This document shows, piece by piece, positions 2,068 through 59,218 of a DNA stretch of 64,000 bases (position 1 is the first letter of the stretch; every line of letters begins with the position of its first letter). Under the pieces are notes generated by a model. The model searched no databases, was not told where the DNA came from, and was given only the letters and a program-made list of their open reading frames with translations. This DNA is from Octopus vulgaris (Eukaryota): NCBI GenBank assembly GCA_951406725.2, contig OX597818.1:19096001-19160000 (forward strand), written 5' to 3'. The position numbers were made by a program, and so were the translations under genes.

Positions 2068-2283
2068 TAACATGTGATCTCTTGAGCACCACCAGCAAAA
2101 AAATTTTTTTCCTCTGCCTTCCCTTCTCAGGATCTTTCCTTCTCCTTTGTTTCTGACGAAGAGCTCCGCTCCAAACGTTAAACCCTCCTTCCCTTCTTTC
2201 CTGAGCGTCAAATAATTCTTTAATTGTTCCACGTCCTCGCGTTGCTGTGTTTTTTTCTGTGTTTTCTTGTTTGGATTAACTTT
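2068..2283 (+). mobile_element. ~200-bp hammerhead-bearing non-coding element (Penelope pLTR/retrozyme-like), copy 1
   Basis: CTGACGA-A-GAGC-TCC-GCTC-(C)AAAC-GTTA...TGAGC-GTC-AAATAA at 2147-2215. Near-identical to copies at 14650, 28767 and 59015. 3' end runs into (TA)n. Confidence 0.75.
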
Positions 2284-2450
2284 ATATATATATATATATA
2301 TATATATATATATATATATATATATATATATATATGTAAATATATATATATGTATATATATATATATATATATATATATATATATATATATATATATATA
2401 TATATATATATGTGTGTGTGTGTGTGTGTGTGTGTGTGTATGTGTGTGTG

Positions 2451-2768
2451 GAGGCGCAATGGCCTAGTGGTTAGGGCAGCGGACTCGCGGTCGTAGGATC
2501 GCGGTTACGATTCCCAGACCAGGCGTTGTGAGTGTTTATTGAGTGAAAACACCTAAAGCTCCACGAGGCTCCGGCAGGGGGTGGTGGCGATCCCTGCTGT
2601 ACTCTTTCGCTACAACTTTCTCTCACTCTTTCTTATGTTGGCCTGCTCGCTTAGCCAGCGGGGTGGCGTCATTTGAAGGCTAAAACAATGCGAATCGCAT
2701 TGTGACCAGCGATGTGTAGCAACATCTGATAGCCTTGTCGATCACAAAAAAAAAGATTTCACGGTGAT
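2451..2768 (+). mobile_element. tRNA-derived SINE, family C (tail type 1)
   Basis: A box TGGCCTAGTGGTTAG and B-box-like GGTTACGATTCCC. Homologous copy at 15542-15836. Inserted in a (TG)n/(TA)n tract. Confidence 0.85.
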
Positions 2769-2842
2769 ATATATATATATATATATATATATATATATAT
2801 ATATATATATATATATATATATATATATATATGTACATATAT

Positions 2843-3329
2843 AGGATCTTTTCGGTTTGAACGGCAGTTTGTAACAATTTCTAGGTAACTAAAAAATTTT
2901 AAACTTCGTATACTGGTAGAATGTGTTTATAAAACATCATTTTCTCTTGGCTTTATTGAGAAAATTCTATAGTTTGTAACATATTTCGTCTTTAAATTCT
3001 TGCATTTCGGAAATTTTAACCAATCGCTGACCGTCCATTGAGGTGAAAACATTCTGTGCGTCATCAATATACCCCTCGTTTAAGAAACAGATTGGGTTTA
3101 TTTACATTTGTGATGAAAGAAAGATACCCTTCCCCCACCCCTAACCCTAACCCTAACACTAACCCTAACTAACCCTAACTATGCAAGAAATTAAAGACGA
3201 AATATGTTACAAACTATAGAATTTTGTCAATAAAGTTTTATAAACAGATTCTACCAGTATACGAAGTTTAAAATTTTTTAGTTTCCTAGAAATTATGTTA
3301 CAAACTGCCGTTCAAACCGAAAAGATCCC
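2843..3329. mobile_element. Non-autonomous DNA transposon (MITE) with ~150-bp TIRs and internal (CCCTAA)n; ISL2EU-like termini (tentative)
   Basis: (A)GGATCTTTTCGGTTTGAACGGCAGTTTGTAACA... is mirrored by ...TGTTACAAACTGCCGTTCAAACCGAAAAGATCCC. AT dinucleotide on both sides. CCCTAA repeats at ~3138-3180. Confidence 0.85.
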
Positions 3330-3611
3330 ATATATACATACATACTTACATACATACACACACACATATATATATTATCATTGTTATCAGTGTTATTATT
3401 ATTATTATTATTATTATTATATTATTATTATTATTATTATTATTATTGAAAAGTCAGGGTAAAATATGTACATGTTCGCTAGAAAGAAGAGTTAAAATTC
3501 TCCAAAGCCACGCATCTCTCACTATATGTAAACATGCACGGAGAATGCAGCAAATATACTACAAAAATATATTTGCTCGATATTGTTCGTTTGGAACAGA
3601 CACGCACGGAA

Positions 3612-4040
3612 TACTCTTTACTCTTTTACTTGTTTCAGTCATTTGACTGCGGCCATGCTGGAACACCACCTTTAGTCGAGCAAATCGACCCCGAGACTTA
3701 TTCTTTATAAGCCTAGTACTTATTCTATCGGTCTCTTTTGCCGAACCGCTAAGTGACGGGGACGTAAACACACCAGCATCGGTTGTCAAGCAATGCTAGG
3801 GGGACAAACACAGACACACAAATACACACACACACATATATATTATATATACATATTTACGACGGGCTTCTTTCAGTTTCTGTCTACCAAATCCACTCAC
3901 AAAGCATTGGTCGGCCCGAGGCTATAGCAGAAGACTATATTTGCTACCCAAGATGCCCAGGATGCCACGCAGTGGGACTGAACCCGGAACCATGTGGTTG
4001 GTAAGCAAGCTACTTACCACACAGCCACTCCTGCGCCTAT
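3612..4040 (-). mobile_element. tRNA-derived SINE, family B (CORE-like segment, internal microsatellite)
   Basis: Minus-strand head GGCGCAGGAGTGGCTGTGTGGTAAG...GGGTTCAGTCCC, central (TA)/(TG) tract and (GTAAAAGA)n tail. This is the most abundant family in the window. Confidence 0.9.
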
Positions 4041-55652: not shown

Positions 55653-56026
55653 TATGTAAAGATAAGAGCCGACAGAATTATTATTGTATTGGACATAATG
55701 CTTAGTGGCATTTTGTCTGTCTCTACATTCTGAGTTCAAATGCTGCTGACTTCGCCTTTCATCCTTTCGGGGTTCATGAAATAAGTATTAGTCGAGCACT
55801 GTCTCATAATAATCAACTATCCTGCTTTCCAAAAATTTCAGGCCTTGTGCCTACAATAGACAGCTCTCTCTCTCTCTCTCTTACACACACACACACACAC
55901 ACACATATTAACAATGTAGGTGTTTCAAACACCTTAGTCATATTTATCATTTTCTTTTTGCTAAAATATTGCATACTGCTGTCTATATTAATTATATATA
56001 TATATATATATATATATATATATATA

Positions 56027-56330
56027 GTTGTTTGTTCCTTCTTGAGCCATGCATGGCTCATAAGGGCCGGTTTCCCAGTTTCCTTGGCGTATAGGTTCCC
56101 CACCTGGACGGGATGCCGGTCTGTCGCAGGTGAGCTGCAAGATGCAGGAGGAAAGAGTGAGAGAAAGTTGTGGCGAAAGAGTCAGCAGAAGTTCACTATT
56201 ACCTTCTGCCAGAGCCACATGGAGCTTAGGTGTTTCACTCATAAACACACACATCGCCCGGTCTGAGATTCGAACCCACTATCCCTTGACCACGAGTCCA
56301 CCGCTCTAACCACTAGGCCATGTGCCTCCA
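56027..56330 (-). mobile_element. SINE family C (tail type 2)
   Basis: Reverse complement of 38847-39130. Confidence 0.85.
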
Positions 56331-57329
56331 CACATACCCATACACACACACACACACACATATATATATTAATCCAAATAAGAAGGCAATGAAAGGGTTT
56401 AGCTCATCTTTAATGACTAGTTACAATTGTTTCAGTACTACCTTGTTTTAATGCCACAGCATGCAAACCTTCCATGTGAAAGCTTATATATTTGCAATTT
56501 TAAATGTTAGAGAGTCAGAAGGTGAGCTCTTATATTGTTCATCTATCAAACACTATGACCAAATTCTATCTACAAAGCATTAACTTGAGCCTTCACTGAA
56601 GACACTTGCACAGTGTCACATTGTGAAATTGAGCTGAGTGTTTGTGGAGTGAACTTCTTAACTACATGACTATAACACACCAGCATCTGAATTACAGACT
56701 TAGATGTAAAGTTTAAAAATATTGATTTATAAACTAGAAAATCTCACCAAGATCAACTACATCATTCACCCTCTTTGACATCACTAAATGCAGTACTATT
56801 TAAATACTGGTGTCAACCTCTTCTTCTTCCCTTCCTCCTTCTTCTCCTCCTCCTCCCATCACTCGATCGATCAATCAATCAATCAATCAATCAATCAGTC
56901 AGTCAATCACTCACTCAGAGAATCAGTTATATTCAAAGTGCCAAGATATGAGCTTTCACCAACATTGTAAACCCTCATGTAGTGCAATAGACATTGGAAA
57001 AACTTGCGGAAGAGAAAAACAATTAATCTAGAGTAATTATGCAAATTAGTGCAGTATTTTTAACTCAGTATGTAAAGAGTTGCAACTAATTATTGATGGC
57101 CTTTTTTTGTCCAACTCTCTGATGATTCTAACAATCCATTGCTTTCATTAGCTTAGATTAAGAACATAACCTTTCTGAACATCTTTCTAAATGTTAATTT
57201 GATATCTCATTACGATTAATTTTTTTCTTTCTCAATCAATTATATAGTCAAATAATAGTTGTGTGTGTGTGTGTGTGTGAGAGAGAGAGAGAGAGAGAGA
57301 GAGAAAGAAAGAGAGAGTGTGTGTGTGCG

Positions 57330-58480
57330 TACTCTTTTATTCTTTTTCACATTTCAGTCATCATTTGACTGCAGCCATACTGGAGCACCATCTTAAAGAG
57401 TTTTAGTTGAGGAAATCAACCCCAGAACATATTTTTTGTAAACCTAGTACGTATTCTGTCTGTCGCTTTTGTTTCCCGAACTCCTAAGTTACGGGAATAT
57501 AAACACACCACCATCAGTTGTCAAGCAATGGTGGTGGGGACAAACATAGATACAAAGACAAACACACAAATATATATATATATATATATATATATATATA
57601 TATATATATATTGTATGTATATATGTATAAATGTATATAGGTATGTATGTGTGTATATATGTATGTATATATATATATGTATGTGTGTATATATATATAT
57701 ATATATATATATATATATATACATACATACATATATATATATATCTGAGACTCCCTTCGGTCATGACTGACCGTGGGATTGCACCTAGAAAGTTACCCTT
57801 CCAGGCACAAGTCCAGGCAAGGTTGTTTATTGAAGACCAGCAGTTGCCCATGCATACCAGCCTCCCCTCTCCACGCAACCAGTGTTATCCAAGGGAAAGG
57901 CAAGGGCTGATACAGCTTGGCACCTGTGACGTCACAACTCATTTCTAGAGCTAAGTGAACTGGAGCAATATATATATAATTATATATATATACATACATA
58001 TGTACATACATACATACATACACTTGCGTCAGAAATTAATTAGCACTTCTCAAATTTCTACATTAAATAGGTTAAATCAATTAACCTATGGGCTGTTCAA
58101 AACGTCTTACGCGATGAGAAAACTTAGTATGGTGTGATTTCAGTCCTTGCGAGGCGCTACCTATATCTATTAAACAAAGGAAGATTTGTCTGCATCCGCA
58201 CTCAGATATGGCCACTAGGTGACAGCACATACCTTGAGTGAAGAGCAAATCAAGGGTGCTAATTAATTTCTGACGGTAGTGTACATACATATATATATAT
58301 ATATATATATATATATATATATACACGATGGGTTTCTTTCAGTTTCTGTCAACCAAATCCACTTACAAGGCTTTAGTTGGCCCGGAACTATAGTAGAAGA
58401 CACCCAAGTGCTACACGGTGGGACTGAACCTGGAACCATGTGGTTGGGAAGCAAGCTTCTTAACACACAGCCACACCTAT
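57330..58480 (-). mobile_element. SINE family B split by nested insertions in its microsatellite
   Basis: The 3' half (57330-57570) and 5' half (58325-58480) enclose a family D tail (57747-57968) and a MITE. Confidence 0.75.
58021..58281. mobile_element. Tc1/mariner-type MITE, TA TSD
   Basis: TA|CACTTGCGTCAGAAATTAATTAGCAC ... GTGCTAATTAATTTCTGACGGTAGTG|TA. Confidence 0.85.
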
Positions 58481-59014
58481 GCATTGTATTCTTGAACTAA
58501 ATACTTTATTCCATGCTGCTACAATCCACTCAGCTATCAAAAGTGAGAAATCCTGCAACAGACTGGCATCCTATCCATGGAAGATTATATACACCACAGA
58601 ATTTAGGAAACTGGCTTTATGAGCCTATAGCTCAGGAAGAGCTATATATATATATATATATATATATATCATCATCATCATCATTTAATGTCTATTTTCC
58701 ATGCTGGTATAGATTAGACGGTTTGACCAGAGCTGGTAAGCTGGAGAGCTGTACCAGGTTCCAATCTGATATGGTTTGGTTTCAATGGCTGGATGCCCTT
58801 CCTATCACCAACTACTTTATAGAGTGTACAGGGTACTTTTTACATGACACCAGCATGGGTAATTTCACATAGCACTGGTACAGATCCTATTATGTGGCAC
58901 TGGCACAAGTGCTTTTTATGTGACACTGGTACAAGGCTTTAGCAGGCCAATCCTCTTCAGCAGTGGGTGTGGCGTTAACACTTCTGCCATGGAGGATGGG
59001 TCTTAACACTTCTA

Positions 59015-59218
59015 TGTGATCACGTGTGTCGTTGGCGATTTTCATTCTCTGTCTTCCATTCTTTGGACTTTTTCTTTTTTTTCTATATTTCTGACGAAGA
59101 GCTCCACTCAAAACGTTAAATCCTCCTCCTTTCTTTCCTTTCCTGAGTGTCCAATAACAATATACATATTCCATGTCCTCGCGTTGTGTTTTCTCTTTGT
59201 TCATGTTTGAATTAACTG
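59015..59218 (+). mobile_element. ~200-bp hammerhead element, copy 6
   Basis: CTGACGA-A-GAGCTCCACTC-AAAACGTTA...CCTGAGT-GTC at ~59085-59157. Homologous to copy 4. Confidence 0.75.

What the first reader, a model, noticed from the sequence alone, without database searches (positions are those of the whole stretch)
2068..59218. Dispersed ~200-bp non-coding hammerhead element family (6 copies) living in (TA)n tracts
Seen: six copies (2068-2283 +, 14650-14868 -, 22676-22900 -, 28767-28977 -, 52425-52605 -, 59015-59218 +) share CUG(A/U)YGA-A-[GAGC loop GCUY]-GAAAC-GUYA...UGAGC-GYY, allowing for single-base decay in individual copies. The stem II loop changes (UCC, GCAA, GUAG) while the stem is largely kept. 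Stem III (ACG-UYA / UGA-G-CGU) closes a ~25-30-nt pyrimidine-rich loop. An extra A separates the core from stem II. There is no ORF, Pol III box, TIR or TSD, and the ends dissolve into microsatellite. Established: Penelope-like pLTRs and metazoan retrozymes carry type I hammerheads. Inference: this is a high-copy non-autonomous ribozyme retroelement, possibly mobilised by a Penelope/Naiad RT-endonuclease and targeted to microsatellites, with at least two subfamilies. Stem I pairing is good only in copies 1 and 2.
Basis: partly seen in the sequence, partly recalled or inferred. Interest (0 to 1): 0.75.

Follow-up and report, generated by a model that had tools for sequence, protein, structure and literature searches.

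The report
Truncated ends of Penelope-like retrotransposons
The six short repeats are cut-short tail ends of protein-coding Penelope-like jumping genes, each carrying a known minimal hammerhead RNA motif, and the rare full-length copies show a short TA stretch beside a predicted RNA helix that likely explains why the element lands in TA repeats.

Summary
The six copies are real, with about 1e5 in the genome. They are not a stand-alone element. Longer copies run 5' into an RT plus C-terminal GIY-YIG ORF with a Cys linker (Neptune/Nematis-type PLE), including pLTR-ORF-pLTR units and a 4.47-kb tandem with an open 1024-aa frame.

The data fit the published minimal type I hammerhead: helix I directly after GAAACGUH, one compensated pair (G-C 71, C-G 38 of 123), H never G.

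New lead: in tandem junctions the end runs on as TATATA, 4 nt, RCGCTCA. This suggests a helix-positioned UAUAUA template that primes on nicked (TA)n. Covariation there is a single event and not significant; nothing was tested at the bench. Large families carry U4C or A6U cores.

This scan reached the PLE-end reading before, on other DNA of this genome.

The parts
2069..2283 (+). Copy 1: 3' end (pLTR) of lineage-1 family A; hammerhead C3-H17 at 2153-2179 with G12 changed to C; conserved distal strand at 2202-2208
   Evidence: 95% identical to the 3' end of L034, which carries the ORF; coordinates; TA tract from 2283
14670..14867 (-). Copy 2: family A; hammerhead at 14788-14762 with the family-wide U4C core; distal strand at 14739-14733; last bases of the family end partly deleted
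   Evidence: TA tract 14631-14669
22669..22833 (-). Copy 3: lineage-2 family C, older; hammerhead at 22790-22763 with A6U core; distal strand at 22742-22736; 5' limit uncertain by a few tens of bases
   Evidence: 87% to L073; best genomic relatives 85-90%
28767..28977 (-). Copy 4: lineage-1 family B; hammerhead at 28898-28872, the only window copy with a fully canonical core; distal strand at 28846-28840; TA tracts on both sides
52425..52605 (-). Copy 5: lineage-2 family D, very young; hammerhead at 52587-52560 with A6U core; distal strand TGAGCGC at 52534-52528; 30-nt duplication near the 3' end shared with other family copies
   Evidence: 39 of 39 other listed hits 99% identical; own RT-EN parent; TRF 52436-52495
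59014..59217 (+). Copy 6: older lineage-1 (B-like) copy; hammerhead at 59091-59117 with G12 changed to A and a helix II mismatch; distal strand at 59144-59150
   Evidence: 80% to L098

Best explanation
The six repeats are 5'-truncated 3' ends (pseudo-LTRs) of autonomous Penelope-like retrotransposons with a C-terminal GIY-YIG endonuclease and a Cys linker, likely Neptune, and the motif they carry matches the published minimal type I hammerhead. SHOWN: linkage to RT-EN ORFs, tandem units, fixed 3' ends, ragged 5' ends, insertion into existing TA tracts, and the junction sequence end-TATATA-N4-RCGCTCA. INFERRED: (1) RNA read through a pLTR-ORF junction is the template. (2) The endonuclease nicks (TA)n and the freed 3' end anneals to the UAUAUA in the RNA, which lies 4 nt before a 6-7 bp helix formed by GAGCGY and RCGCUC(A). 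(3) cDNA synthesis usually stops within about 220 nt, leaving the short copies. (4) The template is uncut at the hammerhead site, because most copies span it. The hammerhead probably acts weakly, as a dimer or with protein help, at another step, or is decaying in the U4C and A6U families.
For: ORF linkage. Family A: ORF pieces lie upstream on the same strand in 11 of 23 stretches chosen for 5' extension, counting the query locus L034; a twelfth hit, L044, is a family-D ORF. Family D: 9 of 20. In reverse, 19 of 20 loci chosen by the D RT carry the D end downstream and 7 of 20 carry one upstream. L300 has three hammerheads 4.47 kb apart and an open 1024-aa frame with RVT_1 E=1.3e-7 and GIY-YIG E=0.007, and DKG, YIDD, CxxxxCxxC and the CxxC/H/H endonuclease motifs in RT-then-EN order.

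Fold. In 123 copies, proximal helix I pairs 1-4 hold in 87-100%; pair 4 is G-C 71, C-G 38; H17 is U 65, A 37, C 21, G 0; N7 takes all four bases. On 24 distinct copies the proximal fold has 94% of cells paired and 9 two-sided changes, 0/500 shuffles.

Target. A host repeat has (TA)3 in 22 of 27 empty copies, and L012 and L023 hold the element inside that tract.

Junction. Seen in 22 of 30 loci found with the ORF-side 5' region. The lineage-2 junction pattern has 215 genomic matches and 0 for the reversed control. The spacer is 4 nt in 47 of 54, with 12 different 4-mers. The innermost pair is T-A 37, C-G 15, other 2. RNAalifold on 10 diverse junctions returns only this helix.

Literature. Short helix I, an extra base before helix II, palindromic helix III and mostly solo truncated copies (PMC4209133, parts 1-2 of 4). 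Internal RT start, AT-rich cutting, hammerhead not needed for insertion (PMC11167929, parts 1-2 of 4).
Against: GIY-YIG scores are below Pfam's cut-off. No ORF was seen behind family-C-type junctions within 1.5 kb (L255, L263, L271), so the parent of copy 3 is inferred. Neptune versus Nematis was not tested.

Helix I covariation rests mainly on one pair and one lineage split. The junction helix has one compensatory event, not above shuffles (100/500). Its pairs 2-5 were fixed by my search pattern. The predicted C-G at the outer pair did not appear (C-A in 4). Single-sequence pairing probabilities for it range from 0.06 to 0.99. Two of the 54 retained junctions (L294, L308) look like chance matches.

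5' ends cluster at about 200-222 nt in many copies, more sharply than random truncation suggests. For the anole Poseidon element the RT start is reported as not homologous to the cut DNA (PMC11167929).
Confidence: 0.88

Rival explanations
1. A dedicated non-autonomous ~200-nt ribozyme element (SINE- or retrozyme-like) derived from the pLTR makes most of the short copies, using PLE enzymes in trans.
For: All 23 unbiased copies are 222 nt or shorter, many at 200-222 nt (after dropping 77 of 100 rows that came from one library entry that was an unrelated repeat). No family-level ORF hit in 464 kb of unbiased DNA. Retrozymes are argued to derive from pLTRs (bioRxiv 10.64898/2026.07.22.740005, part 1 of 5).
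Against: 5' ends differ from copy to copy and grade continuously into the UTR and ORF. Short copies are 95-99% identical to ORF-linked ends. They lack the junction strand and the template-side TATATA context. No monomer arrays of this unit were seen in the fetched loci.
Confidence: 0.08
2. One reading: the distal UGAGCGU closes a long helix III and gives a hammerhead that can cut as a monomer after the distal GUC.
For: The long helix III is 87% paired on 24 copies, and family A can form a 6-bp distal helix I. Fungal and protist PLE hammerheads have a large helix III (PMC4209133).
Against: No two-sided change, 125/500 shuffles reach its pairing, and distal helix I is only 53% paired (gaps in that alignment cost it cells, but the position-anchored count agrees: pair 4 is 0% in lineage 2). 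U16.1 is C in 12 of 118, including young family D. It costs 6.8-17 kcal/mol more than the proximal fold in 7 of 8 copies, 14.6 in the other, by constrained MFE. The distal strand has a better partner beyond the 3' end.
Confidence: 0.07
3. The junction motifs act as DNA rather than RNA: TATATA as a TATA box with a downstream TCAC/CACGTG promoter element, or the inverted GAGCG/CGCTC pair as a protein-binding site. TA targeting would then come from the endonuclease alone.
For: A rotifer pLTR is described with a TATA box and an Inr-like TCACT 20 bp apart (PMC3846280, passages). The Cys linker has been proposed to mediate microsatellite bias (PMC8557442, passages). The RNA-helix covariation is not significant.
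Against: TATATA sits exactly at the integration boundary in every family examined, and only about 8 nt from TCAC, too close for a TATA-Inr pair (general knowledge). Lineage-1 ends fall in two classes 2 nt apart, (TA)3 50 and TT+(TA)3 27 of 118, as expected if the primer anneals in two registers. This rival concerns the mechanism only and is compatible with the identity.
Confidence: 0.3

Closest known systems
Neptune/Nematis-type EN+ Penelope-like elements (PMC8557442 passages; PMC3846280 passages)
   Same: RT followed by C-terminal GIY-YIG with CX2-5CxxC linker and CCHH-type motif, DKG motif, pLTR-ORF-pLTR partial tandems, 3' hammerhead, microsatellite bias.
   Different: About 1e5 end-only copies of at most ~220 nt; family A has a 1-3 kb CA-rich 3' UTR. 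The TATATA-N4-helix junction was not found in my searches.
Minimal hammerheads of metazoan PLEs (Cervera and de la Pena 2014, PMC4209133, parts 1-2 of 4)
   Same: 4-5 bp helix I, extra base between 9 and 10.1, G10.1-C11.1 pair, palindromic minimal helix III, mostly solo copies from truncated PLEs.
   Different: Helix II is 4 bp rather than 7-8. Whole families carry U4C (46 of 47 family-A copies with C4) or A6U (44 of 45 lineage-2 copies). U4C and A6C are reported as low-activity natural variants (PMC3088659, passages); A6U was not found in one search.
Anole Poseidon PAc (Frangieh et al. 2024, PMC11167929, parts 1-2 of 4)
   Same: RT start inside tandem RNA at two sites, AT-rich target, hammerhead dispensable for insertion.
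   Different: PAc starts in an AC-rich stem-loop inside the ORF with no homology to the target. Here the start falls at a UAUAUA that matches the target, upstream of the ORF, and the two end classes are 2 nt apart.
Metazoan non-LTR retrozymes (bioRxiv 10.64898/2026.07.22.740005, part 1 of 5)
   Same: Type I hammerhead, non-coding, PLE-related.
   Different: Retrozymes are tandem units with a hammerhead in each unit. These copies are solo ends of a 4.5-kb or longer coding unit. A real retrozyme-like array lies elsewhere in the genome (L114).

Membership tests
EN+ Penelope-like element | Single ORF with RT and C-terminal GIY-YIG endonuclease | tested here: met
   L300:1147-4218 open 1024 aa; RVT_1 above cut-off, GIY-YIG E=0.007 below cut-off; motifs in RT-then-EN order; homologs annotated RVT_1 and GIY-YIG
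EN+ Penelope-like element | Partial tandem arrangement giving pLTRs | tested here: met
   L034; 7 of 20 family-D loci with an upstream copy; L300 tandem
Neptune/Nematis | CX2-5CxxC linker between RT and EN, and CCHH-type motif in EN | tested here: met
   CSRPRCRTC at 797, IYCISCSLC..YIGQT at 836, two His from 863; CSRSRCNTC in family A
Neptune (versus Nematis) | RT phylogeny with named reference elements | not testable with these tools
   No named reference sequences were available as tool records; 'Neptune' is an inference
Naiad | N-terminal GIY-YIG and no canonical hammerhead | tested here: not met
   EN is C-terminal
Hydra PLE | CxCX5C linker, DKT, no CCHH (PMC8557442) | tested here: not met
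   DKG, CX4CxxC and CCHH-type motif present
Minimal type I hammerhead | CUGANGA and GAAA core, helix II, short helix I, NUH site, palindromic helix III | tested here: met
   met by family B; family A carries U4C and lineage 2 carries A6U
Minimal type I hammerhead | Self-cleavage at NUH | not testable with these tools
   Bench test needed; only assembled contigs were available
Non-LTR retrozyme | Tandem short non-coding units, each with a hammerhead | tested here: not met
   Window copies are solo; tandem units are 4.47-4.5 kb and coding
Rfam hammerhead families | Covariance-model match | tested here: not met
   No hammerhead family among the 150 rows shown of 190 matches at E<=1; minimal forms may simply not fit the models

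The most novel reading that the evidence does not exclude
These Neptune-type PLEs carry a small telomerase-like template module in their RNA: a conserved long-range helix (GAGCGY with RCGCUC) that closes a ~80-nt loop and holds a UAUAUA template exactly 4 nt from its 3' strand. Nicked (TA)n DNA primes by base-pairing to it. Microsatellite targeting would then be partly RNA-templated, and the half of the module beyond the start site is invisible in the ~1e5 integrated ends.
Probability: 0.45. Interest if true: 0.65.

Novelty: new member of a known kind. Interest (0 to 1): 0.36.

Why it matters
As an element it is ordinary: hammerhead-bearing PLE ends are known to be massive in animal genomes. 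It matters for annotation, since about 1e5 SINE-like repeats here are PLE ends. It also matters as a lead on an open question, how PLEs choose their RT start site and why Cys-linker clades land in (TA)n. The junction gives a precise, mutable hypothesis, and a young family with an open ORF exists to test it. The success of families with U4C or A6U cores bears on whether PLE hammerheads need to cut at all.

Tried and rejected
Rfam scan: only microsatellite-driven miRNA-type hits among the rows shown.

Pfam at E<=0.001 on four ORF fragments found nothing; relaxed runs gave RVT_1 and weak GIY-YIG. PDB sequence search gave no relevant hit. The metagenome scan for outgroup loci found none, so the junction was not tested in other animals.

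'Anti-helix II switch' (distal GAGC pairing with the ribozyme's GCUC): energetically possible, but by eye the seven loci with a GGAC/GTCC-type helix II have no matching distal GGAC. Rejected as unsupported.

A 3'-terminal hairpin inside the short copy: RNAalifold gave no consensus structure on 24 copies.

A loose junction pattern was mostly noise (825 matches against 627 control). I used it only to pick 20 family-looking loci by eye.

Expression: no RNA holder listed. Four runs guessed to be RNA, kept as contigs, cover 29-30 of 30 bins of the family-D unit, but contigs cannot show strand, ends or cleavage, so nothing is concluded.

5' ends at the cleavage site: none of the 23 unbiased copies has the ~100-125 nt length expected (lineage-2 lengths are underestimates).

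PMC12602865 (passages) held nothing on structure. Supplements of the bioRxiv retrozyme preprint were not seen, and the repeat library behind PMC13282606 was not available; either may list these families.
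Full report
OBSERVATION. The window lies in a 2.8-Gb animal genome of 227 contigs. I take the host to be octopus-like from recalled repeat motifs and size; this was not tested. 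In 40 stretches of 10 kb chosen by position, the profile finds 17 copies, or about 119,000 per genome (95% interval 69,000-191,000). The best genomic matches share a fixed 3' end followed by (TA)n and differ at their 5' ends (30 loci; 60).

IDENTITY. Five of 30 family-A copies share more than 1.2 kb of CA-rich upstream sequence. Following it leads to an RT and GIY-YIG ORF on the same strand in 11 of 23 stretches, including L034, which reads end-ORF-end. Family D (window copy 5) has its own parent. Nine of 20 stretches chosen for 5' extension contain RT or EN. Nineteen of 20 loci chosen by the RT carry the end downstream. L300 holds three hammerheads 4.47 kb apart around an open 1024-aa frame with RVT_1 and a weak GIY-YIG match. 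The A and D RTs are 65% identical, and the motifs DKG, YIDD, CX4CxxC and CxxC/H/H come in RT-then-EN order. By PMC8557442 (passages) this is Neptune or Nematis, not Naiad or Hydra. Family-B junctions are also followed by ORF sequence, but three C-type junctions showed none within 1.5 kb (25 of 30 junctions positive). The window holds no ORF remnant, and the 23 unbiased copies are all 222 nt or shorter (77 of 100 rows dropped because one library entry was an unrelated repeat).

RIBOZYME. Of 167 profile hits in the DNA fetched by then, 145 had a core, 125 were distinct and 123 parsed. Helix I read directly after GAAACGUH pairs in 87-100% at four positions. Its outer pair is G-C in 71 and C-G in 38, and H is U, A or C but never G. 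On 24 distinct copies this fold has nine two-sided changes (0/500 shuffles). These counts are of related copies, so they reflect few events. The layout matches the minimal PLE hammerhead of PMC4209133 (parts 1-2 of 4), which cut poorly in vitro and only as multimers or with an added helix III. Core changes are family-wide: C at position 4 in 46 of 47 family-A copies with CCGACGA, and U at position 6 in 44 of 45 lineage-2 copies. Only window copy 4 has a canonical core. PMC3088659 (passages) lists U4C and A6C as weak natural variants. Because most copies span the cleavage site, their template was uncut there (inference), in line with PMC11167929 (parts 1-2 of 4).

TARGET AND JUNCTION. TA follows the 3' end in 136 of 150 copies against 11% background. 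The tract predates insertion: a host repeat has it in 22 of 27 empty copies, and two loci hold the element inside it. Where the end runs on into the next unit, family A/B reads end-TTTATATA-N4-ACGCTCA (22 of 30 loci) and family D reads end-TTATATA-N4-GCGCTCA. I predicted the same layout for other lineage-2 families; the pattern has 215 genomic matches and 0 control, mostly family D but with several other ends. Across 54 of 57 junction candidates the spacer is 4 nt in 47, with 12 different sequences. The innermost pair is T-A in 37 and C-G in 15, and an upstream CC faces a downstream GG in most. RNAalifold on 10 diverse junctions returns only this 6-bp helix.

Limits on that result: four of the pairs were fixed by my pattern; the compensatory change is one event and does not beat shuffles; the predicted change at the outer pair was not seen; pairing probabilities vary from 0.06 to 0.99. 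Integrated lineage-1 ends fall in two classes 2 nt apart (50 and 27 of 118), as expected from two annealing registers on a UUUAUAUA template.

MECHANISM. Shown: identity, tandem structure, TA targeting and the junction anatomy. Inferred: the endonuclease nicks (TA)n, the primer anneals to UAUAUA next to the helix, and cDNA synthesis usually ends within about 220 nt. Why 5' ends cluster at that length in two lineages with unlike sequence is unexplained. A DNA-level promoter reading of the junction remains open (PMC3846280, passages).

KNOWN AND NEW. Hammerhead-bearing truncated PLE ends are published (PMC4209133). An octopus repeat annotation assigns 6.83% of the genome to 190 Penelope-like families (PMC13282606, supplement row; part 1 of 3 read), with no mention of ribozymes in its main text. 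The Craig supplement rows I saw list octopus Naiad and Hydra families (first places only). Six searches found no paper describing a target-matching template beside a helix at a PLE start site; the library lacks most subscription journals. Earlier notes of this scan on the same genome reached the PLE-end reading, the copy number and the altered cores, after I had formed that reading. Verdict: a new member of a known kind, with a moderately supported mechanistic lead.

Noticed in passing
L114 (G000:C1:20000001-20010000), + 3083, 3436, 3795, 4154, 4513 and - 2666, 2307: Tandem array with a ~359-bp period and inverted units, each with a canonical type I hammerhead (palindromic helix III, no extra A): retrozyme-like, unrelated to the six copies. 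Earlier scan notes describe a 359-bp array.
   Followed up: partly
L176, L181, L184, L192, L195, L200, L202: Older minimal-hammerhead families with a GGAC/GTCC-type helix II and the same GAAACGUH-AAA layout; parents not sought.
   Followed up: partly
L125 +21, L132 -6471, L134 -8342: Further hammerhead-like motifs of other families in position-picked DNA.
   Followed up: no
L159:4596-5987 (-) and the adjacent frame: A different RT/endonuclease-like element with long open frames (464 and 320 aa) and no Pfam hit for the 464-aa frame; probably another PLE clade.
   Followed up: no
L020, L055, L079, L090, L099, L179: Copies of different families sit in each other's TA tails, often in opposite orientation, forming clusters.
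   Followed up: no
L010, L021, L026, L029, L030 upstream of the end: The family-A 3' UTR is a 1-3 kb degenerate CA/TACA tract conserved between copies, so this element itself spreads microsatellite-like DNA.
   Followed up: partly
L053 about 1480-1545 (oriented): A lineage-2 3' end is joined directly to the family-A 5' region, a possible template switch between families.
   Followed up: no
window 907-1138, 6446-6676, 16854-17099, 35732-35959, 44815-45046, 62172-62398; and 3612-4050 family: Other high-copy SINE-like repeats in the window; not examined.
   Followed up: no
window 52830-53238 and 59464-59623: GC-rich 62-67 bp tandem repeats next to copies 5 and 6.
   Followed up: no
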